DNA from: Mobula birostris
Taxonomy: Eukaryota
Length of the DNA stretch: 64,000 bases
Assembly (NCBI RefSeq): GCF_030028105.1
Contig: NC_092378.1
Location: 16,634,762-16,698,761, forward strand
Reading direction: 5' to 3'
Part shown: positions 3,103-49,150 of the stretch, piece by piece
Position numbering within the stretch: the first letter of the stretch is position 1
How the letters are laid out: each line of letters begins with the position of its first letter
Position numbers and translations under genes: made by a program
Notes under the pieces: generated by a model
Told to the model about the DNA's origin: nothing
Databases searched by the model: none
Seen by the model: only the letters and a program-made list of their open reading frames with translations

Positions 3103-4232
3103 GTAAGTAAAGGAATTTGCCTTTCATTCTGCATACAAATTAATGTTGTTTCAAGCTTTTTAACAACATCTCTAATCCATATCCATCATTTCACAGGCTC
3201 AAAAGCACGACGAGGATACGGAGACGAGACTAGTGGGAAAGGATCTATTTCGAGGACTGGAGGTATGACACTGTATTGGTGCGATGCTCTTTAATCTCAC
3301 CGAACGCACGTGATCAATTCACAGTATCGTTTCTTTTTGGAGAATACCTGTAAGATCTATGGTTTGCTTTGCAGAAATCTGGTAGTTGCTACGTTCTCAA
3401 AGAGGTGATTGACTTCTATCTTGGAACCGTTCTCCAGTCTGACCATTTGCACGCCAAATATTTGCATCTAAGCGACGTTAAAGAGTTTCTCGCCGTTCTC
3501 ATGAAACGGCACATGTCTGACTGCGTAAGTGTTTCCAGTTCTGATTGAACCAATTCGAGATAACATAGACTTGATACCGCTTGCATTTCAAACGAGTAAT
3601 TAAGTACGCAGTGTTATGACTCTGCTGGTGGGCAGACAGCTCAAATTCGGGCTCAGTAGTAGAAGGGAGAGGAACTATACGAAAGTACTGCTGACTGGAA
3701 CAGGCGCTGAAACGAGTTCTTGTGATTGAATTGGTTGTGTTCTTTTCAGGATACTGAAGATAAAACGAAAGCCAACAAAAACATCGAACGACTGAAACAG
3801 AAAGTGGAGAAGGTAATTTACTAAGAATTCATGCACATTGTGCAGATCAGATTCAAGACATAAAACTGTTGTGCTCCTAGTGAGGTACTCGGGAATCATC
3901 TGTACAAATTCGATTATGTTTCAACAATGTGACACAATCAAGAGTGAGAAAAAGAATTGATCTCAGTAGAGTTCAGCATTCGGTATTCATGTGACTTTCT
4001 GTAACCATCTTTTCGGCGCTATGTTTCGTGTAGAAGATTTCCTAGTTTTCCTGCACTGAAATAATTCAACTGATGTTAATTTGTTACTCTGGTTCGTTTA
4101 CTCCAGCTCGGCGAAGCGAGTGAGGCCAAGGTTGTCGGGGAGCTGTTCATCCTCCTGCAGGAGATAACGAGCCGCTGTTCAACACCAGGATGGAAACCCG
4201 GACACCAGGGGAAATCACCGATTGATAACTGA
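2941..4232 (+). CDS. IL22: Interleukin-22 (IL-10 family cytokine), 5 coding exons, 188 aa
   Basis: Manual splice: 2941-3102, 3197-3262, 3375-3524, 3750-3812, 4107-4232. All introns are GT-AG and phase 0, as in the IL-10 family. Protein: MYSLASVAVLVLGCFAVLGSSAPSLKSRRSSAVCHVEEHLLRQMRHKFHVLSKD/AQKHDEDTETRLVGKDLFRGLE/KSGSCYVLKEVIDFYLGTVLQSDHLHAKYLHLSDVKEFLAVLMKRHMSDC/DTEDKTKANKNIERLKQKVEK/LGEASEAKVVGELFILLQEITSRCSTPGWKPGHQGKSPIDN*. It has a signal peptide. Exon 2 resembles human IL-22 DNNTDVRLIGEKLFHGV, and exon 5 resembles LGESGEIKAIGELDLL..RNAC. Four mature-chain Cys (34, 81, 126, 171) match the positions of the IL-22 disulfides. Confidence 0.93.
3197..3262 (+). CDS. IL22: IL22 coding exon 2 (66 nt)
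   Basis: Acceptor tttcacag|, donor GAG|GTATGA; encodes AQKHDEDTETRLVGKDLFRGLE. Confidence 0.92.
3375..3524 (+). CDS. IL22: IL22 coding exon 3 (150 nt)
   Basis: Acceptor tttgcag|, donor TGC|GTAAGT; contains the CYVLKEVIDFYL motif and ends in Cys. Confidence 0.92.
3750..3812 (+). CDS. IL22: IL22 coding exon 4 (63 nt)
   Basis: Acceptor ttcttttcag|, donor AAG|GTAATT; NIERLKQKVEK resembles human NVQKLKDTVKK. Confidence 0.9.
4107..4232 (+). CDS. IL22: IL22 coding exon 5 (helix F, IL-10 family signature, stop)
   Basis: Acceptor ttactccag|; encodes LGEASEAKVVGELFILL; TGA at 4230-4232. Confidence 0.92.
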   Translation, partial: LGEASEAKVVGELFILLQEITSRCSTPGWKPGHQGKSPIDN

Positions 4233-10305: not shown

Positions 10306-12598
10306 CATCAACCGTCTCGACTTCACCGCACCTTGTCCCCATTCCAACCTCACTCCTTCGGAACGCTCTGCTCTCCACTCCCTCCGCACTAATCCTAACC
10401 TTATTATTAAACCCGCCGATAACGGGGGTGCTGTTGTAGTCTGGCGTACTGACCTCTACCTTGCCGAGGCACAGCGACAACTCGCGGATACCTCCTCTTA
10501 TTTACCCCTCGATCGTGACCTCACTAAGGAGCACCAGGCCATTGTCTCCCACACCATCACCGACTTTATCCGCTCAGGGGATCGCCCATCCACTGCTACC
10601 AACCTTATAGTTCCCACACCTCGCACTTCCCGTTTCTACCTCCTACCCAAGATCCACAAACCTGCCTGTCTTGGCAGACCTATCGTCTCAGCTTGCTCCT
10701 GTCCCACCGAACTCATTTCTGCATACCTCGACACGGTTTTATCCCCCCTTGTTCAATCCCTTCCGACCTATGTTCGTGACACTTCTCATGCTCTGAAACT
10801 TTTCGATGATTTTAAGTTCCCTGGCCCCCACCGCTTTATTTTCACCATGGATGTCCAGTCCCTATATACTTCCATCCCCCATCAGGAAGGTCTCAAAGCT
10901 CTACGCTTCTTTTTGGATTCCAGACCTAATCAGTTCCCCTCTACCACCACTCTGCTCCGTCTAGCGGAATTAGTCCTTACTCTTAATAATTTTTCCTTTG
11001 GCTCCTCCCACTTCCTCCAAATTAAAGGTGTTGCTATGGGCACCCGTATGGGTCCTAGCTATGCCTGCCTTTTTGTTGGCTTTGTGGAACAATCTATGTT
11101 CCGCGCCTATTCTGGTATCTGTCCCCCACTTTTCCTTCGCTGCATCGACGACAGCATTGGCGCTGCTTCCTGCACGCATACAGAGCTCATTGACTTTATT
11201 AACTTTGCCTCCAACTTTCACCCTGCCCTCAAGTTTACCTGGTCCATTTCCGACACCTCTCTCCCCTTTCTAGATCTTTCTGTCTCTGTCTCTGGAGACC
11301 GCTTATCCACTGATGTCTACTATAAGCCTACTGACTCTCACAGCTATCTGGACTATTCCTCTTCTCACCCTGTCTCTTGCAAAAACGCCATCCCCTTCTC
11401 GCAATTCCTCCGTCTCCACCGCATCTGCTCTCAGGATGAAGCTTTTTCATTCTAGGACGAGGGAGATGTCTGCCTTTTTTAAAGAAAGGGGCTTCCCTTC
11501 CTCCACTATCAACTCTGCTCTTAAACGCATCTCCCCCATTTCACGTACATCTGCTCTCACTCCATCCTCCCGCCACCCCACTAGGAATAGGGTTCCCCTG
11601 GCCCTCACCTACCACCCCACCAGCCTCCGGGTCCAACATATTATTCTCCGTAACTTCCGCCACCTCCAACGGGATTCCACCACTAAGCACATCTTTCCCT
11701 CCCCACCTCTCTCTGCATTCCGCAGGGATCGCTCCCTACGCAACTCCCTTGTCCATTCGTCCCCCCATCCCTCCCCACTGATCTCCCTCCTGGCACTTAT
11801 CCGTGTAAGCGGAACAAGTGCTACACATGCCCTTACACTTCCTCCCTTACCACCATTCAGGGCCCCAAACAGTCCTTCCAGGTGAGGCAACACTTCACCT
11901 GTGAGTCGGCTGGGGTGATATACTGCGTCCGGTGCTCCCGATGTGGCCTTTTATATATTGGTGAGACCTGACGCAGACTGGGAGACCGCTTTGCTGAACA
12001 TCTACGCTCTGTCCGCCAGAGAAAGCAGGATCTCCCAGTGGCCACACATTTTAATTCCACATCCCATTCCCATTCTGACATGTCTATCCACGGCCTCCTC
12101 TACTGTAAAGATGAAGCCACACTCAGGTTGGAGGAACAACATCTTATATTCCGTCTGGGTAGCCTCCAACCTGATGACATGAACATCGACTTCTCTAACT
12201 TCCGCTAATGCCCCACCTCTCCCTCGTACCCCATCTGTTACTTATTTTTATACACACATTCTTTCTCTCACTCTCCTTTTTCTCCCTCTGTCCCTCTGAA
12301 TATACCCCTTGCCCATCCTCTGGGTCTCCCCCCCTTTGTCTTTCTTCCCAGACCTCCTGTCCCATGATCCTCTTGTATCCCTTTTGCCAATCACCTGTCC
12401 AGCTCTTGGCTCCGTCCCTCCCACTCCTGTCTTCTCCTATCATTTTGGATCTCCCCCCCCCCCCCCAACTTTCAAATCCCTTACTCACTCTTCCTTCAGT
12501 TAGTCCTGACGAAAGGTCTCGGCCTGAAACGTCGACTGCACCTCTTCCTAGAGATGCTGCCTGGCCTGCTGTGTTCACCAGCAACTTTTATGTGTGTT
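10306..12598 (+). mobile_element. Penelope-like retroelement, 5'-truncated (RT + GIY-YIG endonuclease), frameshifted
   Basis: RT motifs MDVQSLYTSIPH, GVAMGTRMGPSYA, LRCIDD (YIDD mutated), LPFLDL; Cys/His linker; GVIYCVRCSRCGLLYIGET; pLTR-type 3' end. Confidence 0.92.
12501..12538 (+). ncRNA. Minimal type I hammerhead ribozyme motif in the Penelope pLTR
   Basis: UAGUC-CUGACGA-A-AGG(UCUCGG)CCU-GAAA-C-GUC^-GACUG: intact catalytic core, helix I UAGUC/GACUG, helix II AGG/CCU, palindromic ACGU in place of helix III. Confidence 0.75.
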
Positions 12599-12802
12599 AC
12601 AGTGCAAGTGATTTTTTTTTCACATCTGCATTTTACGTAGAAAATTTGAAAAACTTAATTTGTTGATACAGCTTCTGAATCCATTCAAAATGATTGAAAT
12701 AGCTTATTAACCTTTCAAATGTTTTTTCATGCCATATGGATACTGTGTAAAAATTTCTTTAATTTGCACCAAATAATGAACCTGTAGGTATTAACATATA
12801 TA

Positions 12803-13098
12803 AGCATCTGTTAGTATTGTGAGACCATGGATTTGCGCCTTGGAAGTTTTCCAGGGCGCAGGCCTGGGCAAGGTTGTATGGAAGACCGGCAGTTGCCCAT
12901 GCTGCAAGTCTCCCCTCTCCACACCATCGATGTTGTCCAAGGGAAGGGCACTAGGGCCGATACAGCTTGGCGCCAGTATCGCCACAGAGCATTGTGTGGT
13001 TAAATGCCTTGCTCAAGGACACAACACGCTGCCTCAGCTGAGGCTCGAACTAGCGACCTTCAGACCACTAGACTAACGCCTTAACCACTTGGCCACGC
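12803..13098 (-). mobile_element. tRNA-derived SINE
   Basis: The minus strand begins GCGTGGCCAAGTGGTTAAGGCG (A box) ... AGTTCGAGCC (B box), then GTGTCCTTGAGCAAGGCATTTAACC. Confidence 0.75.
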
Positions 13099-14029
13099 AT
13101 TAACATATACATATATTCTTATAGTGAAGAAACATTTCTGATCTATAGATACTGCAAATGAAAATGTGTTGTGTTATTTGACATTCCTGTACTGCAAGAC
13201 TCAAATATTTATCAACACGTACATTACTTTGAGATCTTATGGTTCTTCTGCAGCCCCACCAGGGCCTTGGATATCCTCCACCCACTCCAGTTCTGTGGCC
13301 AAATGAGGCCTGTGTAGGATCCACATATTTGATCACAGGTGAAGCTTGTCAAGCAGGCTGGTAGGTTGGTTGAGAGATGGTGTGTTCTTTCTGCCATTTT
13401 TTGGTGACCCCACCCCTCACATGCTCTCAATAAAATGACTCCGGTATCTCAGTAAATTCCCAATGCTCTTTCTCCATTTTGATAAATCACCAGCCAAAGA
13501 CTCCCAGGGGTCAGTGAAGCCACTGAGTTTTTTGCAAGAAAGCATTGAGAATATTCTTGAATCATCTGCCTTTATCTCCCTGCAAATGTTTTGGCCATAT
13601 TAATCTCAAAACATAGTGCCTGGTTCTGAAGTGCAGATAAGGTGACCTAATGGAGCTATCTGCATCTAATTTATATGTCAATGCTTAGGGAACTTGGCAG
13701 GGAGTGGATGCTGAAATCTGTTCACCTCTGATCATAGAGGAGTTTGAAGATACTCTCTGGTGCTTGAGATACCTGCTGTATTTATGAAAATTGTATGAAG
13801 GTGGGGATCACTTATAGATACTCATGTCAAGTTTCAGGTCGTGATCTGAAAGTACTTTAGATTTCCAGATGTGCAGAAGGTGTTTTGGAATATATTTTGG
13901 CATTGTTCTCTGGATTTGCTGAGGTGGCTACGGAGATATGGAAAATAACCTATGTCTTCCAAGGTTCTGGCATTCTACTACTTTGATTGGTTAGGATTTG
14001 TGAGAAAGTTGGTCAAGGGCTTTTCTTTT

Positions 14030-14500
14030 ACAGATGCTTAATGTAAGTCTTATCATATGAGGAGCGTTTGATGGCTCTGAGCCTCTGCTCACTGGAATTC
14101 GGAAGAAACAGGATTGACTTCATTGAAACCAATTGAATGTTGAAAGGCCTTCATAGAGTTGATTTGGACAGGATAGTTACTATGTTGGGGAAGTCTAAGA
14201 CCAGAGGACACAGCCTCAGAATAGAGGGATGTCCTTTTAGAACAGAGATTTCTAAACAGGAATTTCCTTAGCCAGAGAGTGGTGAATCTGTGGAATTTGT
14301 CGACACAGGTGGCTGTGGAAGCCAAGTCATTGGGTATATTTCGGGGAGAGGTTGATAGATTCTTGACTAGTCAGGGCATGAAGGGATACGGGAGGTCAGG
14401 AGATTGGAGTTGAGAGGGGAAATGGATCAGCCATGATGAAATGGCAGTGCAGACTCGATGGGCCAAATGGCCTAATTGTACTCCTGTATCTTATGGTCTT
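14030..14500 (+). mobile_element. CR1-type LINE 3' fragment
   Basis: RT C-terminal remnant (TRGHSL...RNFxSQRVVNLWN) and the typical 3' UTR also seen at 1-125, 31520-31720 and 48830-49150. Confidence 0.8.
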
Positions 14501-15599
14501 AAGGTAAGGCCATTCTCTCATCCATTCTGGTGAATGTTAACAATGACTTAGACATTGGCCTCTGAGCTACATATACACAATTATAGTGCAGTTTGAAGTT
14601 TGAAGCTTGAAGCTGGAGTAACTTCAGTTATGGAGTGGAGAGAGCATTGAAAAGAGTGTTGGACTAATGCTAAAGACTTCCTTGACCTATGTCTGCCCTA
14701 TATATTGAATAGAATCAGAGCATATTTATCTTGATTTCAGATGTGTCACGTGTGCCCATCATTCTTTCAATAAGGAACTGACTTTAACCTCATGAAACTT
14801 GCAACAGACTAAATAAAAAGCTACAAATCCGAGTTGCAGAATGAAAATTACTTTCTCACACAGAACACTCTGTGTCCATGAAGGATAATCCCTGTGATTT
14901 CTGTATGTTAGATTACTAGTCCAGTCATATATTATTGTTGGGGGTTATGATATGAGATTTTATGATATGAGCACCAGATTATGAAATGGAATGGGATGGG
15001 CCTAAGATTTCAGTTTTGGTATTAATTCACTGACATTGTCCCCATTATTGACATCAGTTACTGGCATTTGCTCTGTAGCTTTACCACAGATAACAACATT
15101 TTGCATTTGCCTCTCATGCAGACAAATTATCTGTGCCAACCTCGCTGTGACTTAAACAAGGAGCCTATTGAACCAAATTCGATATTCGAGTAGTCGATCT
15201 CTATATTTTTGATGTACAGTTCAGAAAGTTGCAAATATATAAGAACAGCCACAACCTTGTTTGTTCACCTCTCGTTACAAAATATTTCACTCCCTTAGTG
15301 GGTATTGCATGGATAAAGTTCACAATTATAGGGCATGAGTCCAAAATGAATAGCACTCTCCAATTCCTTTTAGCTACTCTAGGACCAATCTAAATGGTAT
15401 TGATAAAGAGATGCCAAAATCTACCCAGTTCAATCCTAATAACATGGTCTCATTTGGAACTTAGCTGGGGTGTTCTAAAAAGGATTTAGAGAAAGCATAA
15501 ATCATAACCTGTACAAAAGGTCTATCTCTGAGAGAATAAGCAGGTTGGAAATGTACTTGCTTTGCTTAGTTTTGTTTTTTTCTTATTTCTCCCTTCTGC

Positions 15600-16980
15600 T
15601 GAAAGCACTGAGTTATGTTGATCCATTGTTTCTTTCTGCTCCTGCCCAACTGACTTGTGTCCGTAACTCAACTCCATTTTGTCCTCCTTGGTTCATTCCC
15701 TTTCCATCTACATTTGTGATACTTCACTCTCAATCTCTTCAATTACTTTAATTTCCCTGGCCCTAATCGCCTCATTTTCACTGGATTTCCAGTCCCTGTA
15801 CACTTCTATCCCTCATCAGGAAAGCTTTAAAACTCTGCATTTTTTTCTAGACAACAGATCTAACTAGTTGCCCTCCACCACCATCCTCCTCTGTTTGGTG
15901 GAACTGGTCCTTAACTACAAAAACGAAAACAAGAGAAAATATGCAGATGCTGGAAATCCAAGCAACACACACAAAATGTTGGAGGAACTCAGTAGGCCAG
16001 GCAGCATCTATAGAATGGGATGAAGGTTCCCAGCCCGAAACGTTAACTGTATTCTTTTCCATTGATACTGCCTGGCCTGCTGAGTTCCTCGAGCATTTTG
16101 TGTGTGTTGCTTATCCACAAAAAATTCTCTTTCTGCTCTGCCACTTTCTCCAAACCTAAGGTGTAGCCCTGGACACCGAAATGGTCCCCAGTTATGCCTG
16201 CATTTTCAGAAACAGTCCACGTTCCAGGCTTACACTGGTAACGCTGTCACAACCATGAATTTGGCAACGCAGCAGATACAGCAATTGCGCTCGTGAATAT
16301 ACACGTGTCAGCTAATTATTATTTCATTGTGTTAGCATTTAACTCCATTCATTCCGTTGTAGCATTTGTTGAGACTTGGCCACAGCACAGCAACGCTTCG
16401 CTGCCTGTTTGCATTCAGCCTTGCAGTAGAAATTGAACAGTCGAATCAACCGACTCTGAAGACTAGCGGTATTCATTTTATTCTTAGTTGTTCTTTTCAG
16501 CCGCAGTGTAGGCTTCATTTCTCATTTTGAGAGTTTTAGTTAATGGCCCTGTTTGGCCTAGCATTAATTGTTTTCTTTTCCCTTCAACACTGTCTGCATT
16601 AAAGTCTGTGAACTATCGACCCACTTCAGTGTCTCTCACTCCACACTTGGGCCATATCCAAACCCAGTGACAAATGCTCCCCAGCTCTTTCTACAGTACA
16701 TTGATGCTCACTGAGCTCATCAACTTCATCAACTTTGCCTCCAACGTCCACCCTGCCCTCAAATTTACTTGGTCCTTCTCTGGTGGCTTTCACCCCTTTC
16801 TCAATCTCTGTTTCCATCTCCGGGGGCAGACGATATACTGAATCTCACAACTATCTTGACTGTACCTCTTTCCCCCTGTCGCTTGTAAAAATGCCATTCC
16901 CTTTTCTCAGCTCCTCCATTTCTGCCACATCTGTTCTCAGGATGAGGCTTTCCATTCCAGAACATCTGAGATGTTAATGA
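15600..16980 (+). mobile_element. Degenerate Penelope fragments with nested insertions
   Basis: LDFQSLYTSIPHQE and NFASN remnants, interrupted by a foldback element (15930-16112) and a solo LTR. Confidence 0.7.
16245..16672 (+). mobile_element. Solo LTR
   Basis: TGTCAC...GTGACA termini, 5-bp TSD AACGC/AATGC (one transition), ATTAAA near the 3' end. Confidence 0.8.
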
Positions 16981-18769
16981 TCCTTCCATGGTTTCAACTT
17001 TGAACCAATTAATGGATTTTCAAACTTGTTCTCTAAAAGAGACCTACAAAATACATTTCAAAATACCGAATATCTTAATAGAAAATTAGCGGGGTTAACT
17101 TTATGTACATGGATTAAGCTCCATTGGAGAACAAGGGATCTAGTCTTTTGATATTTGTATCCATACATTCAGCACATAATGGTTCTAATATAATTCTGCA
17201 AGAGGAGTTATGGAAATGTTTCTTTTGAATTGGGCTGAAAGACATTTTCTGCATTTTTACTGATGTAGCACCTCAACTCAAAATATCAATTAACCCTTTG
17301 CTTCAACAGATGCTGCCTAACCTGCTGAGTTTATCCAGTAGTTTGTTTTTTGCTCCAGATCCCAGTATCTGCAGTCTCCCTTGACTCCATGTTTCTGTTT
17401 CTGTTATATCATTACTAATTCCTGACCCATCTCAGCACTTCAGACCTACATACTTCTAAAAAGTATCATACGTAAGCATTTCTAACTGTAGTGAAATGAA
17501 AGTGCGAATGTAATGTGCCAACGTTTGATGTTTTGCCCACTAAAATCTAACCAGAAAGCTTCAGTTCTAGGAAAGTGTTAACTGCACTGTGAGTAATCTT
17601 TAATTGCTAATCACATATCACCACATTTCCAATCCTATGGAATGCATATCTCTCTCTAAAATTCGTTGTTAAAATGTACCTTTGCCCTAAATATGTAAGC
17701 AACTTATGCCATTGCAGTATGTGGTTGACTGGTGGAAAACAGGGCAAACTGAGTTTGTAGCAGTAAATGTCACTTACAATGAAAATCACAGGAGCATACA
17801 AAGTGCATGTCTACGTGCATCTTCTTTTGTCTGGCTTAGATATTTGCTGTAGCCACATGGTTTGTGTGAAAAATTGTTTATTTCAATAACATTACCCTTA
17901 CTAGTTTAGCATTTTTGTTTATACTTTGAAGAGGAATTTAAATAGAGTAAAACTAAAGGGCCATCCACCTTATCTATGACTCTCATAACTTTAAACATTT
18001 CTGTACAGTCACCCTTCATTCTCATATATTGCAAGGAATAAGGTCCTAGCTCGGCCAAACTCTCACTTTAACCCTGAGTCACTTATCCTGGCAGCCCTAT
18101 CAGAACATTCTGTTCCAAGAAGATCACTTCTCATTTTCCCAAAGTTCAATGAACATAAGCATGGTCTACTTAACTTCTTCACATGGGACAAACTAGGAAT
18201 TAATACGGTGATCCTTCATTGCACTCCTTGTATTTCCTGCTATGGGCAGGAAGGCTGGATCTTTACACAATATTCCGGAGCCCTGTATAAGAAAGGCCAT
18301 CAGGTTGTCTTTCTTTCTTGACGAACCTGCATGTTATCTTTCAGTGATTTGTGAACAAGGGCACACAGGTCTTTCTGAACACCAGCACTGCAACCCTTCA
18401 TCATTTAAATGTACACAAAATGCCGGAGGAACTTGGCAGGTCAGGCAGCATTCATGGAAAGGAATAAAGAATCATCATTTCAAGGCCAGGACCCTTCTCA
18501 GCACGAAATGTTGACTTTTTATTCCTTTTCCTAGGTACTGCCTAACCTGCTGAGTTTCTTCAGCATTTTGTGGCTGTTATTCTGGATTTACAGCATCTGC
18601 AGAGTCTCTTGTATTATCATTTAAACGTACTCCACTTTTCTATTTTTTGCACCAAAATGGATGACCTCACATTTTTCTACAATAAATTCCATGAGGCCAT
18701 GTTCCCACCCATTCACTCAGCCTGTATTTTTATATATGAATAAAAATATCGATCAAATGCTTTGAGAGG

Positions 18770-19860
18770 TTGGTCATGGATAGAAACAACTCCTGTCTGT
18801 TGTTTCTGGACCTGGACCTTCAGCAATTTGCCTATCACCACAATAGGTCTATGGCAGTCACGATTCCAATGGCTCTCCACGCGGCCTTGGATCACCTGAT
18901 AATACAAATACCTATGTCAGGATGCTGTTTACTGACTATAACTCAGCGTTCAACACCATCATTCCTATAGCCCTGATTGAAAAGCTGCAGAACCTGGGCC
19001 TCTGTAGCTCCCTCTGCAACTTAATCCTCAACTTCCTAACCGGAAGACTACAATCTGTGCAGATTGGAATTAATATCTCCGCCTCGCTGACAATCAACAC
19101 TGGTGCACCACAGGGCTGTGTGCTTAGCCCACTGTTCTACTCCCTCTACACCCATGTCTGCGAGACTCGGCATAACTCAAATGCCATCTATAAAAACTTG
19201 CTGATGATACAACTATTGTTGGCAGAATCTCGGGTCGAGATGTACCAGCCAGTTGAGTGGTGTTGTAGCAACAATCTTGCGCTCAGCATTAGTAAGACCA
19301 AAGAGCTGATTGTGGACTTCAGTAAGAGTAGAACAAGGGAACACAAACCAATCCTCATAGAGGGATCAAAAGTGAAAGTTTCAAGTTCCTGGGTGTCAGT
19401 ATCACCGAGGATCTAATGATCACAACATATTGATGCAACTATAAAGAAGGCAAGACAGTGGCTATATTTCATTAGGAGCTTGAAGAGATTTGGTTTGTCA
19501 CCTAAAACACCCGAAACCTCCTATGGATATACCATAGAGAGCATTCTGACTGGCTGCATCAGAGTCAGGTATGGATAGGGCGGGGTTACCGCACCGGATT
19601 GAGGTAAATTGCGGAAAGTTGTAAACTCAGGAAGGCAGCATCCATCATTAAGGACCATCACCGTGCTGTCTTCTCATTGTTACCATGAGAAAGGACGTAC
19701 AGAAGCTTGAAGGCTCACACTCAGTGATTCAGGAACAGCTTCTTCCCCCCTGCCATCCGATTCCTAAATAGACATTGAACCCCATGAACACCACCTCACT
19801 ACTTTTTTAAAATTTATTTTTGTTTTTGTATTACTTATTCAACAACTACTTAATCTATAT
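18770..19860 (+). mobile_element. Rex/Babar-type LINE RT and 3' end, degenerate
   Basis: [15 protein letters not shown]...[27 protein letters not shown]. Confidence 0.85.
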
Positions 19861-19869
19861 TATGGATGT

Positions 19870-20240
19870 AGAGGATGCGGAGGATGAGCGGTGACCTGAT
19901 AGAGGTGTATAAGATGATGAGAGGCATTGATCATGTGGATAGTCAGAGGCTTTTTTCCAGGGCTGAAATGGTTAGCATGAGAAGGCACAGTTTTAAGGTG
20001 CTTGGAAGTAGGTACAGAGGAGATGTCAGGGGTAAGTTTTTTTACACAGAGAGTGGTGAGTGCATGGAATGGGCTGCCAGCAACGGTGGTGGAGGCGGAT
20101 ACGATAGGGTCTTTTAAGAGACATGGAGCTTAGAAAAATAGAGGGCTATGGGTAACCCTAATTTCTCAAATAAGTACATGTTCGGCACAGCTTTGTGGGC
20201 CGAATGCTCCATATTGTGCTGTATGTTTTCTATGTTTCTT
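19870..20240 (+). mobile_element. CR1-type LINE 3' end inserted in the Rex/Babar 3' UTR
   Basis: RRMSGDLIEVYKMMRGID motif; the same 3' UTR occurs at 33060-33310 (-) and 40912-41085 (+). Confidence 0.8.
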
Positions 20241-20842
20241 ACATATGTATGTACTTAATGTATCTGTTTTTTCCTATATTTATCATATTTATCATTGTAC
20301 TGCTGCCACAAAGTTAACAAATTTCATGACATATGCAAGTGATATTAAACTTGATTCTGATTCTTCTATTGTATCCTTGAAGCCTCTCCATTTCCTTCTC
20401 ACAAGCTCAGTATGACACAGCCTACTACCAGAAACAAACTTGCATATATTGTACGTGGATCCCCATCTGGTTGATAAACATAAATAGTATTGGAGGTACT
20501 GCAACAACTGTTTATCAGATTGATTTCCATGAAATGAGATTAAGCACACAGGAGCAATACATGTTTAATTTTAGAAGAATATAACATGATCTCATTGAAG
20601 AATAAAATATTCTTGGAGGGATTAATAAACGAGATGCTGGGATGAAGTTGCTCCTAACTTAGATATCTAGAATGAGGGTTCACTCCACAGGTCATATTTA
20701 CCCATGGAGTTTGTGTTAATTTGCCTTCAGATTTTAGAACTGGCTTATTTATACTGTTTTATTGAAAAAATTATTCAGTGCGTACATGTTGGCAGCACTG
20801 GCAAAAAATTGCACAGCACAAGATTTTTGTGCACACTGGTCA

Positions 20843-22900
20843 TTACAAATTAAAGGGAACATTGTTGGTCGGTACCCCGTCTGGGCTGGATGCTTTCTGT
20901 GGGTTCACCCTCCTAAAGGATGCTCTCATGTCAGCCTCAGATACTGAAATCACAGGATCTTTGGGGGCTATGGGAGTTTGATGGTCAAAGTGAGCATAAA
21001 AGGCATTGAGCTCATCTGGAAGCATCTTGTTATCATCTATGTCATTTGGTTTCACTTTGTTAGAGTTGGTAGCATTCAAGCCCTGCCACAACTGTTCCTT
21101 CAGGTCCTGAATTGCCACTTTGCATGTGAGATGGCTTTTCAGAGATTGTACCTGGAGGTCTTTTATTTTACTTAGTCACCATTCCTGAACACCATTGATC
21201 TGGCCCTCAGCAGATTGCGGATTTCTTGGTTCATCCAGGTCTTCTGGTTAGGAAAAACTCTGAATGATTTTGTGGGTGCAGTCTTTATAAAGTTTGTAAC
21301 AACCGTGATGTTTACATTCGCATCTCTGATGAGTCCTTGAAAATGGCCCAGTCCGCCATCTCGAAGCAATCCCCTAGCCGGTCCTCTGCATCCCATGACC
21401 ACCTCTTTGTTGTCCTTATCTCTATAGTCTTGCACTTTAGCCTCTGCCTGTATGCAGGTAGAAGGAGGGCAGCCAAATGGTCAGATTTCCTGAAATGCGG
21501 TCTAGGGATGGAACAGTACACCAGGTGCAGCCTCACCAGTGCCCTGTATAGTTGCAGCATAACCTCCCTGCTCTTAAATTCAATCCCTCTAGCAATGAAG
21601 GCCAACATTCTTTTTGCCTTCTTGATAGCCTGCTGCACCCGCAAACCAACCTTTAGTGATTCATGCACAAGCACTCCCAAGTCCCTCTGCACCGCAGCAT
21701 GCTGCAATTTTTACCATTTAAATAATAACCTGCTCTTACATTTTTCATTTCTAAGTGGATGACCTTGCCATTTGCCAACATTGTACTCCACGTGCCAGAC
21801 CCTTGCCCACTCACTTAAGCTATCTATATTGCTCTGCAGACCCTCCATATCTTCTGCACAATTTGCTTTTCCATTCAATTTAGTATCATCAGCAAATTTA
21901 GATACACTACACTCGGTCCCTCTTCCAGATCGTTAATATATATCGCGAACAATTGCAGGTCCTGCACCGACCCCTGCAGCACACTGCTTACCACTGTTTG
22001 CCAACCAGAGTAACACCCATGTATCCCAACTCTCTGTGTTCTATTAGTTAACCAATCCTCAATCCATGCTAATAGTCATAGTCATACTTTATTGATCCCA
22101 GGGAAAATTGGTTTTCATTACAGTTGCACCATAAATAATTAAATAGTAATAAAACCATAAATAGTTAAATAGTAATATGTAAATTATGCCAGGAAATATG
22201 TCCAGGACCAGCCTATTGGCTCAGGGTGTCTGACCCTCCAAGGGAGGAGTTGTAAAGTTTGATGGCCACAGGCAGGAATGACTTCCTATGATGCTCTGTG
22301 TTGCATCTCGGTGGAATGAGTCTCTGGCTGAATGTACTCCTGTACCCACCCAGTACATTATGTAGTGGATGGGAGACATTGTCCAAGATGGCATGCAACT
22401 TGGACAGCATCCTCTTTTCAGACACCACCGTCAGAGAGTCCAGTTCCATCCCCACAACATCACTGGCCTTACGAATGAGTTTGTTGATTCTGTTGGTGTC
22501 TGCTACCCTCAGCCTGCTGCCCCAGCACACAACAGCAAACATGATCGCACTGGCCACCACAGACTCGTAGAACATCCTCAGCATCGTCCGACAGATGTTA
22601 AAGGACCTCAGTCTCCTCAGGAAATAGAGACGGCTCTGACCCTTCTTGTAGACAGCCTCAGTGTTCTTTGACCAGTCCAGTTTATTGTCAATTCGTATCC
22701 CCAGGCATTTGCAATCCTCCACCATGTCCACACTGACCTCCTGGATGGAAACAGGGGTCGCCGGGGTAATACAGGAGTAATACATCACCCCGAACTCTGT
22801 GAATCCTTATCTTATGGATAAATTTTTTATGCGTCACTTTATTGAACGCCTTCTGGAGATCCAAGTAAATAACATCCATCTGTTCCGCTCTATCCACTGT
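20843..22900 (-). mobile_element. Nested LINE fragments: Rex/Babar (20843-21495), CR1 (21500-22070 and 22770-22900), and a younger Rex/Babar 3' end (22075-22770)
   Basis: LPDELNAFYAHF; QRDLGVLVHESLK...YRALVR; KKGQSRLYFLRRLRSFNICRTMLRMFYESVVAS. Confidence 0.8.
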
Positions 22901-23519
22901 GCTTGTCAAACGGGACCTGCCTTTGTTGAATCCATGCTGTGTCTGCCTGATGGATCCATTTCCTTCCAGAATACAACCTGAGATTAATTTTCTTGTGGGC
23001 ATACTTAATAAGTCCATAATAGAATCAATGAAAGACTGCTCCAAGTTTGGTGTTCAACCAGTGTGCCAAAACAACAAACTATGGAAATACAAAAAGAAAG
23101 AAAGAAAGAAGCAATAAGTGTCATGACAATTAGTTGAAGAGTCTTTGAAAGTAAATCCATCAGCTGTGGGAACATTTCAATCATGTGGCAAGTGAAGTTA
23201 TCCCCACTGGTTCAAGAGGCTGATGGCCGAGGGGTAGTAATTGTTCCTAAACTGGTGGTGTGAGTTCTAATAAGGATAAGCACAACAGTTAACAAATTTC
23301 ATGACAGATGCTGTTGATATTAAATCTGATTCTGAGAATGCAAATCAAAAAACTCCTACTCAAGCTATATAACATGTAGATCAAGTTCTAGCTTCAACAT
23401 AATATCTTCTTGCTTCAACAAGATCTAAACTCCCAAAATAGTTTAGACTGAATTATATCCTAAATGATGTATGAAGAAACCCCAATCTTAATTGATTGGG
23501 TAAATCTTAAAGACTCTTC

Positions 23520-36909: not shown

Positions 36910-39769
36910 CCAACCCTTAAAGGGAACATTGATTGTAGGATACTTTCTGTGATGCATCAATAAAAGTTTGTGAGGGTCAAATTTCTTTGGTATCCTGAGG
37001 AGTAGTGGCGCTGGTGAGCTTTCTTGGCGGTGATGTCAACATGATTGCACCAGGACAGACTATTATTGCTGATATTCGCTCCTAGGAACTTGAAGATCTT
37101 AGTCCTTTTGACTTCAGCACTGTTGATGTAAATAGAAAAGTGTGCACTGCTCCCCTTCCTGAAGTCAACGACCAGCTCTTTTGTTTTGCTAATATATAGG
37201 TAAGGTTGTTGTCAAGACACCATGTCATTATGCTCTCTATCTACTCCCTGTAGACCACCTCATTTTTATTTGTAATATGGCCCATTGTGGTGGTATCATC
37301 TGTAAAAGTGTACATAACACGATGCAGCCAAACAAGTTATCAATCACAGAAACCAAAGTTGGAGTAATGGATTCCAGTCCACCCTGTTTTTCTTCTATGT
37401 TTCTTCTTGATATTCCTTACCCCATTCCTGATAAGCCAGAACCGCTCTCTACATTTATACCCTTTTCTCCAACTTGGATAACTTCACATGCATATGATAT
37501 TTCTTCAGATATCCTTTTAACACAAATGGTCTAAAAGTGTTTTGGAGACATGAACCTCAGCTAAGGCCTGTAAATGTTGTGTTTTTAACTTCAAGCTGAT
37601 TACTGTTTTCCATTTACATTTTAGGAACTGAAGACTGACTCCCATTTATGATCAGAAAGTACACAATACATATAATTGGAAGTTTATTTACATCTGTGTT
37701 TGATCCTATAAGTGGCAGATGCTATGTTTAGAAAGCGGACATTAGCAAACATAAGCCAGGAAGCGAATATCTATCACCACTCCCTGCCCACTCCCCGCGA
37801 AGAGAAGATTTCTAACCCAACTTCTTCTTTCCGATATCAACTTTGAGGTCAAGGCTCCTGCCAAGACTCCTTCTAGGAAAACACTATCACTCCACCATCA
37901 ATTCTAGTAGGTTACCAGAGCTAGAAAGAGCTCCCTTCACTCTGAAGCTCAAATATCTCAATGTAAGAGTTCCTGTGTGATTTTGTCTTTAGAGTATCCA
38001 CTTCTTCAATCTCATCTGCACACACCTCTCAAACCTTAAAGGAATATCACCATTATAATTTTCTATAAACACGCAACAACCACACATCGATGTCCATGTT
38101 ATAAATCCATATTAGTCCGTCTTTAAAATCATCTTCCCCGCAAACATTTCTTGCCATTTCCCCAAGCAAATTTGAATCACTGTCTCTGTCGCCATAGTTC
38201 ATCAGGTGAGCTGGCTCTCAATAAGCTGAAGGTAGTTCATCTCTTTCACAGGGCTGTTCGTGTTGCTTTCGATGCGATGCACAACTTTACTCAGTTTTCC
38301 TGAAAATGAGTTGAAGCATCAACTGTTCGTTCTTTTCCATGGATGCTGCCTGGCCTGTGGACTTCCTCTATCATTTTGTGTGTGCAGCTTTGGATTTCCA
38401 GCATCTGCAGAATTTTTCATGTTCCGTACAGTATATAACTGTTCAGGTCTTTATGCTTTACTTTAGAGAGTTGTAAAGCACTACAGCACAGAAAAAGGCC
38501 CTTTAGCCCATCCAGTATCATTTGTTGTTTTTATTATTTGCACGACTTGTCCTCTTTTGCACATTTGGTGTTTGCGAATCTTTGTTGCATGTGGTTTTTC
38601 AGGGATTCTATTGTATTTCTTTATGTTCCTGTGAATGCCTGCAAGAAACAATCTCAACGTCGTATATGGTATACCTACATTGATAATAAACTTATTTTGA
38701 ACTTTAACAGAGAACTCTTCACACATACCTCAGGTCAAAATAGTACATGAAGCACAGATGAAGTCCCTGAAGCCCAGTGTCGAAGTTGGTGCAGATGGTA
38801 TCTGTGATTAGAAAATTAAGTTGGACAGACATGGACTGAAGAGGAGTAAGGCCACTTACTCCTTTCCTTGATAAATTAAAATTGATAAATGCAGTTTTCC
38901 CCTTTTGCTTTCTTGACTGCAAGGCAACATAGCTCAGTTCTGATCATTTACACCTTTCCACATCCAGAATTCGCTAATGAGAGCATTTAACATGTGGGAA
39001 TGTAAATGCGAGGTGAGAGTAAAGTACATTATGTTCGCAGTAGTCCTGAAAAGGAAAAGGTGATATGAGAGTTGTAAAAACCTACAAATCTCTCGATTGA
39101 ACACAGGCAGCAGAGTAGCATTTCACTCTGCTGTCAGACATATGATTCACTGTCAATCTGCCCACAAGTTTCAAGAAAGTGCTTCAGTTGTACCATTGAA
39201 ATGAGGTAAACACCACAAGGATGAGACCTAGAATTTAAGATGTACAGAACCTCTTAATTGCCAAATTCCGTTCTGGTAGATTAAAATAAATCTCCAGGAT
39301 TGAAAGGGAAAAATATTCAAGACACATTTACACATTCATCAGTTTGTAGGGTAGTGAAGAAACATAGTGAAGAAGGTACTCGACTGGCAGTTTTAGCTCT
39401 AGACCACTGATCCAGAGACACAAATTCAATTTCTACCAAGGAAGCTGGTAGTTTAAATATAGAATTTAAAAGGTTAACCACTGCAGCAGCAGCCTTGAAA
39501 ATACTGTAATGTCATTAAAACACAACTGGTTTTCCAATGTACTTCAGGAAACAAAATCTAATACCCTACATAGTGATTATAGAGTAGAGTTGAGGTGATA
39601 CTGAATGGAGACCTTTAACACACCTTGTCAATGCTGACCACTGGGTACCTAATTACATTAATCCAATTTCCCAGCACTTAGTCCTTGGCCTACTTATCCT
39701 GCAGTGTTTCATTAGATCATCTAAATACTTAAACACTGTGAAAGTACTTGTCTTTACCATTCCCTAATT

Positions 39770-40910: not shown

Positions 40911-41819
40911 AGTGGTGGCGAAGGCAGAAGCAACAGGGTCTTTTAAGAGACTCCAGGATAGGTACATGGAGCTTAGAAAAATAGAGGGCTATTGTTAACC
41001 CTAGGTAATTTCTAAGGTAAGGACATGTTCGGTACAGATTTGTGGGCCGAAGGGCCTGTATTGTGCTGTAGGTTTTCTATGTTTCTAGATACTTCCTGAC
41101 CTGCTGTGTTCCTCTGGCACTGTGTGTGTGTGTGTGTGTGTAGGTGCGTGGCTGCAGATTTCCAGCTTCTGCAGAATCTCATTTGTCTACCACGTCTCCC
41201 CTATTGTACCAACTAATCAATAGCTTTACTTAGCCCAAGACTATCTTCCTGGTTGTCAGCAACATCAACAACCTTTATGCTATTTGGTCTAGTTCAAGCC
41301 ACAGTGTTACTCCTGTACTTGTCTCTTCAGTTCAGAGGCAATTATGACAGGACACGAATGATGACAAGGCCATTAATAGCCAAATCCCATCAGGAAACAC
41401 GTGGTACAAACATTTCAGAAGTAAAATAAATGGTGTTTGCCGCAAAAATAGCAAACTCTAAGCACTGAGTTAGACATGAGATGTAGTTCATTTCAACAGT
41501 GCTCATATTTATTTGGCTATGTCCTCGAAATCTCCCGATAAACATCTTCTACTTTCCATTTTTTATACCTCAACAATTAGCTCCGCATCTCACTCCCAAT
41601 CTTTACTCACGGAGGAAATAGTGAACAATGTGGTAGAGTCAAAACACAAACACGGGGAAATCTGCAGATGCTGGAAATTCAATAAGGAGGTAAAAGCGCT
41701 CTAATCTGTATTCGCCCACGGAGGCACATGTATTTTCTTGATACTTAGGTGTTTTATTCGATGCTGAAACACATGATTGTGTCCATTCGCACCGTTGTGA
41801 AACGTTTCCAGTATTCTGG

Positions 41820-42035
41820 TTGGATGGAAGCCCAGCCACACGCACGGAGTTTCCCGGTGTCCCCCGTGAACGCAGCGAGTCCACGTACTGCGGCGGAAAA
41901 TCCCTGAAACCAAAGCTGATGGAGGAAACGTCGGAGGACTTCCGCTACTTTCTTGGAAAGCTCTGTAGCTATGCAAATTTCCTTGGTTACGTGCATCGAA
42001 AAAAACACTTTGTTTTTTATATGCAAATTATATAG
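41820..42035. promoter_or_regulatory. Candidate immune enhancer or promoter (CpG-rich TF-site cluster)
   Basis: Perfect kB sites GGGAAACTCC (41846-41855, -) and GGGATTTTCC (41895-41904, -), GAS TTCTTGGAA (41950-41958), octamers ATGCAAAT (41971-41978 and 42021-42028), ETS CGGAAGT (~41938-41944, -), XRE core TGCGTG (41839-41844, -). Confidence 0.6.
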
Positions 42036-43301
42036 GTAAGCATCAGTTCTCGGCATTATAGGATGCACGTGCACAGAAATCTGCAAATATGCACTTTAAA
42101 CACCCCCCCCCATGATGCATTGTCTTATTTTTTTTAATCAGAGTGGCTTCAATTAGTCCTGCAATAAAATGTCAAATTCTGTTTCAGATCTCGATATGAA
42201 ACACAGGAGATTCCCGATTTCCCGATATAAAACACGAGATTCTCTTCACAATAGAGACAAGATATCCGGAGTAACATACACTCACAACGCTGGAGGAACT
42301 CAGCAGGCAGCATCTACGGGCGGGGGTCGATCGAGACTCGTTATAAAGGAGGGAGATTATCTATGCTGCATTAACTGCTGATCAGCAAGGAAATCAGGGA
42401 AGCTAGATCTCCACATCAGTTCTGTCCACCATTCCTCGGCTGCTTTGGAGGGAGTTATTGAAAAAAGATTTTAATAGCTCCTGTCAAGTGTAAATGGCAG
42501 CAAAACAACCATCTGTGGAGCTCTTTGCAGCTGATGGATGTTATTAGTGCACGGGACTCGGTAGCCTTCTTAACTGCTAATGCATTTTTTGGGTGCAATC
42601 CACATTTTGCTTTAAGAATTAAATCCATGTCGAAAAGAAAGTTCAATCCGAAAGTGGTAACATCAAGCTGACGTTAACGGTTAGCTCTTATACGTATAGA
42701 TGACAAAGTTACTGTTTTTATAAGTTACACTACTCTGTTAACTTCTCAGACAGCAAATATTCTCACTATATTGTATGTAAAGTTAAAGTTAGATTACACT
42801 TTTTATAGCAATAATTTTACTGTAAGGTTTTAGCAACTAGCTAACAATTTCAGTTCGCAAAATGAACAGACACAGAACAAAGAATGTAATTAAGGATTAA
42901 GAAAAACGGAGAATTTTTTTTAATGATGTGAGCCTGCATGGTGTTAGTGATCAGACGTGAATCACTGAATGTTAACATGCAGAAACAGTGAGCAATTAGG
43001 TTGATGTGTCGAAAGCTAGAGGGCACTGGTTTACAGAAGAGCTGTAACAAGGATTGAGTGATTTTTTTTCATACAAAGATGATGGCTGCAGGAAAAGTAG
43101 CAACATTTAAGAGAGATCTTGACAGATATTTGAATGAGCATGGCATAGATGGATATGGAATAAATGTAGCCATGGTGGATTAGTATAGGCGGTTGGCATA
43201 GTCACAATGAAATAATAGGCCTCCTTCTACACTGTCCAACTCTAAGAGTCCATTATAAATTGTATATTTGGATGTATTGTAAGAGGATTTAATTGTAAGA
43301 G

Positions 43302-46995: not shown

Positions 46996-47814
46996 TATCT
47001 TTGCATCTGGTTAAATAGGTTAATTATATGGAGCTATAAACTAAGATCCCCTGCATTAATGTTGAATGACTATATTTGTATTTAAAAGTATTCTAAATTT
47101 TGACCATGTAAAAAGGTGAAGCTTTATCCAAATTTATTGCAAAATTGAGACACACCCACATCAATCTGATACCAATTTCAATAAATTAACTAGCAATTAC
47201 CTTTTAACACTGCACACACTTCTGAATTTCCTGAAAGCATGTCCTTTGGCTTCACAATTCTAAAAGATCCAATTCATGTCCTTCTTCATCATCTCACACC
47301 AATTTCATGCTGACTGAAAAGGTAGCAACATTTATGATACCATCTTCTATTGTATCATTGCATTTTAGTGTGGCTTTTGGTGATGAGATAGATCTTTCTG
47401 TTGTGCATTGGCAATATTCTCATCCTGAATCTAGGAATAGACATTTCATTGCCACAGAATATTCTCTACACATGACCTATTTGTTTGGTCATAGCAATAA
47501 TTCCGTTGACCATATATATAACAACTACATTTAACATTGAGATGTTTCAGACTTCATTAAATTTTATTGGATTTTTTTAGTGATGCCGACAAAAACAATG
47601 CTCTTTGAAATACATGTCATGATAGATGACGATTAATCTGTTTGATGTTAGCAAAATAAAACTCATTTGATATAAATAAAAGCTTGGCTCTTTCCCATCA
47701 AAAGCACAAAAACTAAAAAAAAGTTCTTATTTTATTGATGTAAACACCGATATTATTTTGAATGACCTTGTCCTGGTTAATTGGTCTCTTTAATCTATAC
47801 CTTGTAAAGCCCAG

Positions 47815-49150
47815 AGCTTTTGTGCAGGGGATATGAAGAGTCTGCAGAGGGATATAGATAGGCTAAGTGAGTGGGCAAGGGTCTGGCAGATGGAGTACAA
47901 TGTTGGTAAATGTGAGGTCATCCACTTTGGAAGGGAAAATGGAAGATTAGATTACTATCTAAATGGTAAATGATTGCAGCACGCTGCTGTGCAGAAGGAC
48001 TAGGGCGTGCTTGTGCATGAATCACAAACGGTTGGTTTGCAGGTGCAGCAGGCTATCAAAAATGAAATGGAATGTTGGCCTTCATTGCTAGAGGGATTGA
48101 ATTTAAGAGCAGGGAGGTTATGCTGCAACTGTATAGGGTACTGGTGAGGCTGCAACTGGAGTACTGTGTGCAGTTCCGGTCTCCTTACTTGGGGAAGGAT
48201 ATACTGGCTTTGGAGGTGGTGCAGAGGAGGTTCACCAGGTTGATTCCAGAAATGAGGGGGTTAGAAAATGAGGAGAGATGGAGTCGCCTAGGACTGTACT
48301 CGCTGAAATTTAGAAGGATGAGAGGAGATCTTATAGAAACATATAAAATTATGGAAGGGCTAGATAAGATAGAGGCAGGAAAGTTGTTTCCACTCACAAC
48401 ACGCTGGAGGAACTCAGCAGGTCGGGCAGCATCCGTGAAAACGATCAGTCAACGTTTTGGGCCGGAACCCTTCATCAGGACTGAAGACGGAAGGGGCAGA
48501 GGCCCTATAAAGAAGGTGGGGAGAGGGTGGGAAGGAGAAGGCTGGTAAGTTCCAGGTGAAGAACCAGTAAGGGGAAAGATAAAGGGGTGGGGGAAGGGGA
48601 AGCAGGGAGGGGATAGGCAGGAAAGGTGAAGAAGGAATAGGGGAAAGCACAATGGGTAGTGGAAGGAGGTGGAACCATGAGGGAAGTAGTAGGCAGCTGG
48701 GGGAGGGGGCAGAGAGAAACTGGGATAGGGGAAAGGAGGGGGAGGGAAATTACCAGAAGTTGGAGAATTCAATGTTCATACCAAGGAGCTGGAGACTACC
48801 TAGACGGTATATGAGGTGTTGCTCCTCTAGTAGGTGAGACTAGAACTAGGGGACATAGACTCAAGATTCGGGTGTGTAAATTTAGGACAGAGGTGAAGAG
48901 GAATAGCTTTTCCCAAAGAGTGGTGAATCTGTGGAATTCTCTGTCCAATGAAGCAGTGGAGGCTACCTCAGTTAGTATATTTAAGACAAGGCAGGATAGA
49001 TTTGTGCACAGTAAGGGAATTAAGGTTATGGGGAAAAGGCAGGAAGGTGGGGATGAATCCACGACAAATCAGCCATAATATTATTGAATGGCGGAGCAGG
49101 CTCGACGGGCCAGATGGTCTACTCCTGCTCCTATTTCTTATGTTCCTATG
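47815..49150 (+). mobile_element. CR1-type LINE 3' part, interrupted by a Penelope fragment (48395-48828, -)
   Basis: MLAFIARGIEFKSREVMLQLYRVLVRLQLEYCVQF...RRMRGDLIETYKIM; CR1 sequence resumes after the insert. Confidence 0.85.

What the first reader, a model, noticed from the sequence alone, without database searches (positions are those of the whole stretch)
41820..42035. Dense immune enhancer-like module 37 kb downstream of IL22
Seen: about 200 bp of unique, CpG-rich DNA contains two perfect NF-kB 10-mers in the same orientation (GGGAAACTCC, GGGATTTTCC) and a canonical STAT GAS site TTCTTGGAA. It also has two perfect octamers ATGCAAAT 50 bp apart, an ETS CGGAAGT, an AhR XRE core TGCGTG, an RFX-like GTAACCAAGGAAAT, TACGTG and a RUNX-like TGTGGC. 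I saw no comparable cluster elsewhere in the window. Knowledge: the mammalian IL22-IL26-IFNG interval contains distal conserved enhancers bound by RelA, STATs and Runx, and AhR and STAT3 control IL22. Inference: an undescribed locus-control element of the chondrichthyan IL22/IFNG locus, or the promoter of an antisense lncRNA analogous to IFNG-AS1. A donor-like ACG|GTGCGA lies on the minus strand near 41792 and an acceptor-like ctcattttcag| near 38300.
Basis: partly seen in the sequence, partly recalled or inferred. Interest (0 to 1): 0.7.

Follow-up and report, generated by a model that had tools for sequence, protein, structure and literature searches.

The report
Duplicated IL22 enhancer twin in rays
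In this ray genome, a 350-base cluster of immune transcription-factor motifs is a duplicate of an element lying upstream of a second, near-identical IL22 gene, and because its core motifs are unchanged in the related species sampled it likely still works as an inflammation-inducible enhancer of the neighbouring IL22 copy.

Summary
The motifs are real and form the densest such cluster in 464 kb, but the segment is not unique and does not lie between IL22 and IFNG. It (E') has one paralog (E), 80 kb away and 67% identical. Gene order: IFNG(-), IL22B(-), E, MDM1(-), IL22A(+), E', decayed MDM1 copy, RAP1(+). Collinear blocks indicate a tandem duplication of IL22-E-MDM1 followed by inversion of the IL22A block. 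E' is therefore the twin of an IL22-upstream element, now 38 kb downstream of IL22A. Both copies occur in 4 of 4 other organisms in the final read-laying. For function: 0 of 17 independent substitutions hit the six canonical sites (P=0.012), E's three perfect sites (kB, GAS, octamer) all survive, and 11 of 17 CpGs are kept against 0 of 23 in other duplicated blocks. Against: the overall substitution rate equals the flanks, and the mouse twin-E22-2 has no effect on Il22. The AhR, RUNX-like and splice-donor calls are not conserved. Best reading: a likely NF-kB/STAT/Oct enhancer of IL22A (about 0.55), with no activity data. It is a new member of a known kind, set in an apparently unreported, gene-converted ray IL22 duplication.

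The parts
41747..42097 (.). E': whole element alignable to paralog E (G000:C11:16596122-16596515, same orientation, 14 kb upstream of IL22B)
   Evidence: 67% of 398 columns; 75.5% ungapped; best 100 columns 86%
41846..41855 (-). NF-kB site 1 GGGAAACTCC; identical in paralog, no change listed in 4 of 4 organisms
41867..41878 (+). 12-bp block identical in E and E', no named motif; 2 changes among orthologs
41895..41904 (-). NF-kB site 2 GGGATTTTCC; no change listed in 4 of 4 organisms, degenerate in paralog E
41922..41938 (+).
41938..41944 (-). ETS core CGGAAGT; no change listed in 4 of 4 organisms, absent in paralog E
41950..41958 (.). STAT GAS site TTCTTGGAA; identical in paralog, no change listed in orthologs
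41971..41978 (+). Octamer 1 ATGCAAAT; identical in paralog, no change listed in the 3 of 4 organisms that cover it
41977..41990 (-). X-box (RFX)-like 14-mer; 12 of 14 identical in paralog; 1 change among orthologs
42021..42028 (+). Octamer 2; no change listed in the 3 of 4 organisms that cover it, 7 of 8 in paralog
42043..42056 (+).
41835..41844 (-). RUNX-like and XRE-core hexamers; NOT conserved (changes at 41838, 41840, 41842)
2941..4232 (+). IL22A, five coding exons, the likely target; 97-100% identical to inverted IL22B over most of the gene body
8280..23474 (.). Inverted paralogous chain (islands at 8.3, 9.5, 17.4, 20.9, 23.3 kb match -58.6 to -83.9 kb downstream of IL22B): the inverted block
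39047..39338 (.). Direct-orientation paralogous island matching -41.7 to -41.1 kb, collinear with E/E'
47151..47826 (-). Decayed MDM1 copy (pseudo-exons with in-frame stops); marks the duplicated unit and serves as neutral yardstick (134 of 191 coding columns, 70%)

Best explanation
The segment is a duplicate of a CpG-rich NF-kB/STAT/octamer motif cluster that lies 14 kb upstream of a second IL22 gene, and it likely still acts as a signal-inducible enhancer of the adjacent copy IL22A. Shown: the paralog, the gene order, the decayed MDM1 copy, both copies in other organisms, and the sparing of the motifs. Inferred history: tandem duplication of [3' region-IL22-E-MDM1], then inversion of the IL22A block, which moved E' from upstream to 38 kb downstream of IL22A. 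Gene conversion likely keeps the two IL22 genes and their proximal promoters near-identical while E and E' diverge. Inferred mechanism: inflammatory signals (TLR, IL-1 or antigen receptor to NF-kB; cytokine receptor to a STAT, STAT3 by analogy with mammals) would load kB1, kB2 and GAS on a site held open by Oct and ETS-family factors, and the element would loop to the IL22A promoter. E' carries a perfect second kB site, an ETS site and a second perfect octamer that E lacks, so the two identical cytokine genes may respond differently.
For: One paralog only, in a collinear direct chain with the 39-kb island and pseudo-MDM1. Both E and E' are present in 4 of 4 organisms laid. All 3 strict-consensus sites found by scanning E alone (kB, GAS, octamer; 27 of 27 nt) are intact in E'; chance 6.6e-5 at the 70% neutral yardstick, 2.4e-3 at 80%. 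0 of 26 variable ortholog positions fall in the six canonical sites (P=0.001); 0 of 17 after removing changes shared by all other organisms (P=0.012); 1 of 17 for all named motifs (P=0.005). CpGs of the paralog kept in the window copy: 11 of 17 in E', against 4 of 35 in the 11 other islands (P=1.5e-4) or 0 of 23 after dropping one island that is a repeat. Mouse Il22 enhancers E22-1 and E22-2 lie about 32 and 17 kb upstream of Il22 (PMC13133264), the position of E; STAT3 and NF-kB are named there as IL-22 inducers. IL22A has an open frame and a promoter nearly identical to IL22B.
Against: No chromatin, reporter or expression data. The substitution rate of E' equals its flanks: X10 17/281 vs 71/1294; X11 19/284 vs 93/1174; both P>0.5. 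Columns shared with E are no less variable than the rest (13/185 vs 4/51, P=0.77). E/E' identity (75.5% ungapped) is only modestly above other duplicated islands (63-74%), and the perfect-run excess is weak (P=0.025 at 70%, 0.076 at 72%, none at 75.5%). With all named motifs and all 26 changes, the circular-shift control gives 17 of 236. Split into shared and E'-only sites, neither half is significant (P=0.12, 0.14). The window species has about 9 own-branch substitutions and lacks two short segments (about 11-13 and 26 bp) that E and some orthologs keep. E looks more conserved than E' (3 substitutions and 5 single-base indels in 240 loose-end letters, counted by eye). CpG retention may reflect germline hypomethylation rather than selection. 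The mouse twin-E22-2 has no effect on Il22. The target is inferred from ancestry and proximity: MDM1 and RAP1 promoters are about 50 and 45 kb away.
Confidence: 0.55

Rival explanations
1. E' is a fading, dispensable twin like mouse twin-E22-2. E does the work, possibly for both IL22 genes (it is about 41 kb from IL22A too), and E' keeps motifs and CpGs through hypomethylation, recent relaxation and luck.
For: Rate equal to flanks; shared columns not better kept; deletions on the window species' branch; E more conserved than E'. The neighbouring MDM1 copy decayed. Mouse precedent.
Against: Motif sparing among orthologs, including sites that are perfect only in E' (0 of 17 changes, P=0.012); 27 of 27 nt of E's sites kept, while pseudo-MDM1 coding sequence fell to 70%.
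Confidence: 0.22
2. E' is a CpG-rich promoter of a non-coding RNA.
For: High CpG density; octamer 2 is followed by a TATA-like stretch and a donor-like AG|GTAAGC on +.
Against: The minus-strand donor is at chance level (568 equal sites) and its GT is changed in 2 of 4 organisms and in E. The + strand TATA/donor is absent from E. The acceptor near 38300 abuts a local repeat at 38312-38424. No Rfam match near the gathering score (2 hits, E 0.28 and 0.52).
Confidence: 0.1
3. The element is functional but serves another gene: RAP1B (promoter about 45 kb right) or MDM1, of whose 3' flank it was ancestrally part.
For: Similar distances. E is 12 kb from the MDM1 3' end.
Against: E' was kept although its linked MDM1 copy decayed. 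kB/GAS/Oct content fits an inducible cytokine better (established knowledge). In mouse, repressing E22-1 or E22-2 left Mdm1 unchanged.
Confidence: 0.09
4. It is a locus-control element for IFNG, like the mammalian IFNG CNS elements.
For: RelA, STAT and ETS-type motifs.
Against: About 175 kb from IFNG, with MDM1 and both IL22 genes between. No T-box consensus in it. In mouse, Il22/Mdm1 and Ifng sit in separate TADs (PMC12511032), and a CTCF-like site lies between IL22B and IFNG here.
Confidence: 0.04

Closest known systems
Mouse/human Il22 enhancers E22-1 (CNS-32, about -32 kb) and E22-2 (about -17 kb) (PMC13133264)
   Same: Roughly 400-bp cores upstream of Il22 on the Mdm1 side, like E (-14 kb) and the inferred ancestral position of E'. 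The paper says both carry predicted motifs for nearly all of Stat3, NF-kB, AHR, HIF1a, RORgt and Runx.
   Different: They need Runx plus RORgt (E22-1) or Runx plus Batf/AP-1 (E22-2). E and E' have no RORE or AP-1 consensus and no conserved Runx site; they carry kB, GAS, octamer and an X-box-like site. Sequence homology could not be tested.
Mouse Iltifb inverted Il22 duplicate with twin-E22-2 (PMC13133264 section 7)
   Same: Inverted IL22 duplicate carrying a twin of an upstream enhancer.
   Different: Iltifb is a strain-limited pseudogene between Il22 and Ifng, and its twin has no effect on Il22. Here both IL22 copies have open frames, flank MDM1, are homogenised, and the twin is old (67%) and shared across species.
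Mammalian IFNG distal CNS elements and IFNG-AS1 (recalled; TAD layout from PMC12511032)
   Same: RelA, STAT and ETS-type motif content; same gene cluster.
   Different: E' is outside the IL22-IFNG interval, about 175 kb from IFNG; no T-box site; no supported transcript.
Lymphoid kB + octamer + ETS enhancers such as immunoglobulin enhancers (recalled, not tested)
   Same: Motif grammar.
   Different: No immunoglobulin context seen; adds a GAS site.

Membership tests
Il22 upstream enhancers E22-1/E22-2 | Lies upstream of IL22 on the MDM1 side | tested here: met
   Met by paralog E. E' lies between the duplicated upstream island and pseudo-MDM1, so it meets this by descent, but it is now downstream of IL22A.
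Il22 upstream enhancers E22-1/E22-2 | Required Runx site(s) | tested here: not met
   Only loose RUNX-like hexamers; the named one is changed in 4 of 4 organisms.
Il22 upstream enhancers E22-1/E22-2 | RORgt site (E22-1) or AP-1/Batf site (E22-2) | tested here: not met
   No RORE or AP-1 consensus match in E or E'; simple consensus scan only.
Il22 upstream enhancers E22-1/E22-2 | Sequence homology to the mammalian elements | not testable with these tools
   No mammalian genome sequence on hand.
Il22 upstream enhancers E22-1/E22-2 | Inducible open chromatin, H3K27ac, reporter and CRISPRi effect on IL22 | not testable with these tools
IFNG distal CNS / locus control region | Within the IL22-IFNG interval or IFNG domain | tested here: not met
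   IFNG at about -133 to -135 kb (window-relative), beyond IL22B and MDM1.
IFNG distal CNS / locus control region | T-box (T-bet) site | tested here: not met
   0 of 5 T-box consensus hits in the window fall in 41700-42200.
IFNG-AS1-like lncRNA promoter | Conserved splice donor and exon structure | tested here: not met
   GT changed in 2 of 4 organisms and in E; score at chance level.
IFNG-AS1-like lncRNA promoter | Transcription from the site | not testable with these tools
   No RNA holder listed.
Multicopy repeat | Many dispersed copies | tested here: not met
   2 matches of 2 candidates genome-wide, against 2170 candidates for a true repeat run the same way. The tool warns that counts are lower bounds.
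Constrained non-coding element | Slower than neutral flanks overall | tested here: not met
   6.0% vs 5.5% and 6.7% vs 7.9%.
Constrained non-coding element | Substitutions avoid the binding sites | tested here: met
   0 of 17 in 52 of 236 positions, P=0.012; 1 of 17 in 83 of 236, P=0.005. Few, related species.

The most novel reading that the evidence does not exclude
Rays and skates carry an old IL22 duplication around MDM1 in which gene conversion keeps the two cytokines and their promoters identical while twin enhancers diverge. One protein is thus made under two regulatory programmes, run by an NF-kB/STAT/Oct grammar with no RORgt, Runx or AP-1 site, in a lineage where RORC has been reported missing or doubtful.
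Probability: 0.25. Interest if true: 0.68.

Novelty: new member of a known kind. Interest (0 to 1): 0.42.

Why it matters
It gives a concrete, testable candidate for an IL22 enhancer in cartilaginous fish. RORC, which binds the mouse E22-1 enhancer, was reported absent in elephant shark (PMC3964593) and was not found by homology search in other sharks, with presence depending on tree rooting (PMC6238376). The pair E/E' with two near-identical IL22 genes is a natural experiment in regulatory divergence after duplication. It also points to the ancestral-position copy E as the stronger candidate for a deeply conserved IL22 enhancer. Distal cytokine enhancers as such are well known, so this extends known biology and does not overturn it.

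Tried and rejected
(1) Overall paralog identity as proof of constraint: rejected, because pseudo-MDM1 and other islands still align at 63-74%. (2) Island 58.1-58.6 kb as part of the yardstick: dropped after it proved a multicopy repeat. Copy number was checked for 7 of 12 islands; 5 are unchecked. (3) Coding or structured RNA: the 4 ORFs overlapping the element gave no credible Pfam match (one Inp1 hit, E 0.09); Rfam gave 2 chance hits. (4) Expression: no RNA holder listed; used neither for nor against. (5) Genome-wide Pfam search for IFNG missed C11; IFNG was found by motif and confirmed only weakly per exon (2 of 3 exons scanned, E 0.0033 and 0.16, below cut-off), plus its four-exon layout and synteny. 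(6) Distant relatives: a two-block pattern found 0 matches in metagenome contigs; runs X9 and X12 did not cover the core; no shark or chimaera genome was available. (7) Earlier scan notes: 3 look-ups; two empty, one with 3 unrelated notes. (8) Literature: 8 searches listed no paper on a batoid IL22 duplication or a chondrichthyan IL22 enhancer. The library lacks most subscription papers, and I read no supplements (those of PMC3964593 and PMC13133264 may bear on IL22 copy number and motif layout).

Full report
OBSERVATION. Every motif named is at the stated place. With four strict patterns (kB, GAS, octamer, CGGAAGT) the 216 bp hold 6 hits. The best other cluster in the window plus 40 flanking 10-kb loci (464 kb, 145 hits in all) holds 3, and 0 of 20,000 dinucleotide shuffles reached 4. 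The patterns were chosen from the finding, so the odds are optimistic. The segment is CpG-rich (o/e 1.07; above the 99th percentile of 4745 non-repeat windows). It is flanked by short repeat fragments at about 41641-41682 and 42278-42319 but is not itself a dispersed repeat. It is not unique: the genome search returns the segment and one paralog at C11:16596155-16596515, 68% identical.

LOCUS. Window-relative coordinates follow. The window gene (2941-4232, +) is IL22-like: exon 3 is 100% identical to a protein labelled Mobula birostris interleukin-22-like, and 8 more ray and shark IL22-like proteins follow. Pfam IL22 hits 2 of 5 exons weakly. A second, inverted IL22 (IL22B) lies at -54 to -52.5 kb. 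MDM1 lies at -26.7 to -9.4 kb on the minus strand. IFNG lies at about -133 to -135 kb on the minus strand (per-exon Pfam scores below cut-off). A RAP1 gene starts coding at +121.6 kb, with a CpG island at +87 kb ('RAP1B' by recalled synteny). The order is IFNG, IL22B, E, MDM1, IL22A, E', pseudo-MDM1, RAP1. Elephant shark IFNG is described next to IL-22 between MDM1 and DYRK2 (PMC5332411, passages), which fits the left half. E' is thus about 175 kb from IFNG and outside the IL22-IFNG interval.

HISTORY. A sensitive comparison of repeat-masked sequence gives two chains among the 32 hits printed for this interval; the rest are scattered. An inverted chain links window 2.6-23.5 kb to -52.5 to -83.9 kb. 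A direct chain links 39.0-39.3 kb, E' and 47.2-47.8 kb to -41.7 kb, E and the 3' part of MDM1. The 47-kb block is a two-copy pseudo-exon region with stops. The simplest reading (inferred) is a tandem duplication of [3' region-IL22-E-MDM1], decay of the right MDM1, and inversion of the IL22A block. E' is then the twin of an IL22-upstream element. IL22A and IL22B are 97-100% identical over most of about 1.7 kb, including introns and proximal promoter, while the other islands are 63-75%; this points to gene conversion. Two or more near-identical IL22 proteins are on record for both Mobula species, Hemitrygon, Leucoraja and Rhinoraja; one distinct current sequence each for Pristis, Amblyraja, Hypanus and the sharks (9 clusters only; isoforms not excluded; gene positions in those species not checked). 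In a tree of 22 of 25 stored proteins (left out: my exon fragment and two older duplicates), within-species copies group in 4 of 5 species at 87-94% bootstrap, none starred; Leucoraja does not. All 4 organisms laid have one contig matching E' and a second with E-specific letters, so the duplication predates their split.

IS E' KEPT BY SELECTION? For: a scan of E alone finds three strict sites (kB, GAS, octamer), and all 27 nt are intact in E', against 70% identity for pseudo-MDM1 coding columns (134 of 191). Among orthologs, 26 variable positions were read in 41815-42050 (25, 1; 2 differences of X11 and about 4 of X14 are counted by the tool but not located). None falls in the six canonical sites. 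Nine are shared by all covering organisms and may bias the test; of the other 17, 0 fall in the six sites (P=0.012) and 1 in all named motifs (P=0.005). CpG retention is 11 of 17 against 0 of 23 (4 of 35 before dropping a repeat island). Against: the overall rate equals the flanks, columns shared with E are not better kept, the run statistic is weak, and the two halves of the site set are not significant alone. E appears better conserved than E' in the 240 loose-end letters compared by eye (overlapping stretches, related species). The XRE core and RUNX-like site are changed in 4 of 4 organisms, and the 41882 TACGTG exists only because the window species lacks a short segment. The picture is site-limited constraint, or partial relaxation, and not a strongly conserved block.

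MECHANISM (inferred). I commit to a signal-inducible enhancer of IL22A: NF-kB and a STAT binding kB1, kB2 and GAS, with Oct and ETS-family factors, looping 39 kb to the promoter (0.55). Rivals: fading twin (0.22), ncRNA promoter (0.10), other target (0.09), IFNG control (0.04). The lncRNA splice evidence fails: 568 minus-strand sites score as well, and the GT is changed in 2 of 4 organisms and in E.

COMPARISON. The mouse enhancers E22-1 and E22-2 lie about 32 and 17 kb upstream of Il22 and need Runx with RORgt or Batf. The inverted pseudogene Iltifb carries a twin-E22-2 whose repression did not change IL-22 (PMC13133264: passages, sections 7 and 12). E occupies the equivalent position, but neither copy has RORE, AP-1 or conserved Runx consensus sites. 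It may work like an Il22 distal enhancer, but it fails the motif tests for membership, and homology was not testable. Il22/Mdm1 and Ifng lie in separate TADs in mouse (PMC12511032, passages). RORC status in cartilaginous fish comes from PMC3964593 and PMC6238376 (passages). PMC6640115 (passages) added nothing. No supplements were read. Motif names and consensus patterns are recalled, not taken from a database call.

VERDICT. A real, non-random motif cluster. A new member of a known kind (candidate distal cytokine enhancer), with a duplication history that I did not find in print in 8 searches. Function is untested. Interest 0.42.

Noticed in passing
window 2690-4400 vs L008 (about -52.6 to -54.4 kb): Two inverted IL22 genes flank MDM1 and are 97-100% identical over most of the gene, including introns and proximal promoter, inside a duplication otherwise 63-75% identical: likely gene conversion, possibly across batoids. 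Such inverted repeats could also flip the E-MDM1 interval.
   Followed up: partly
G000:C11:16596122-16596515 (L002:1468-1861): Paralog E, 14 kb upstream of IL22B, appears more conserved than E' and is the better candidate for the ancestral IL22 enhancer.
   Followed up: partly
window 17431-17600 and its twin at about -74 kb: Second two-copy conserved island (best 100 columns 83%) with a GAS site at 17565 (one mismatch in the twin); the twin lies inside the IL22B-IFNG interval.
   Followed up: partly
window 23330-23345: Adjacent GAS and octamer at the edge of another paralogous island; the octamer is not kept in the twin.
   Followed up: no
window 47151-47826: MDM1 pseudo-exons with in-frame stops, cut by an inserted repeat.
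   Followed up: yes
L009, window-relative -68.7 kb: CTCF-like consensus match between IL22B and IFNG, about 64 kb upstream of IFNG, recalling the mouse Ifng -70 kb boundary site; 1 of 4 matches in 464 kb.
   Followed up: no
window 2941-3072: The two database proteins labelled M. birostris (145 aa) start at an internal Met; the window has an open frame from 2941 that adds the signal peptide, so the records are probably truncated annotations.
   Followed up: no
window 3200-5350: The IL22 gene bodies and 3' flanks are themselves CpG-rich (o/e above 1), which may mean a broadly hypomethylated domain.
   Followed up: no
between IL22B and IFNG (-55 to -133 kb): No IL26-like exon was seen with IL22 exon queries or the IL22 profile; not searched with an IL26 query.
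   Followed up: no
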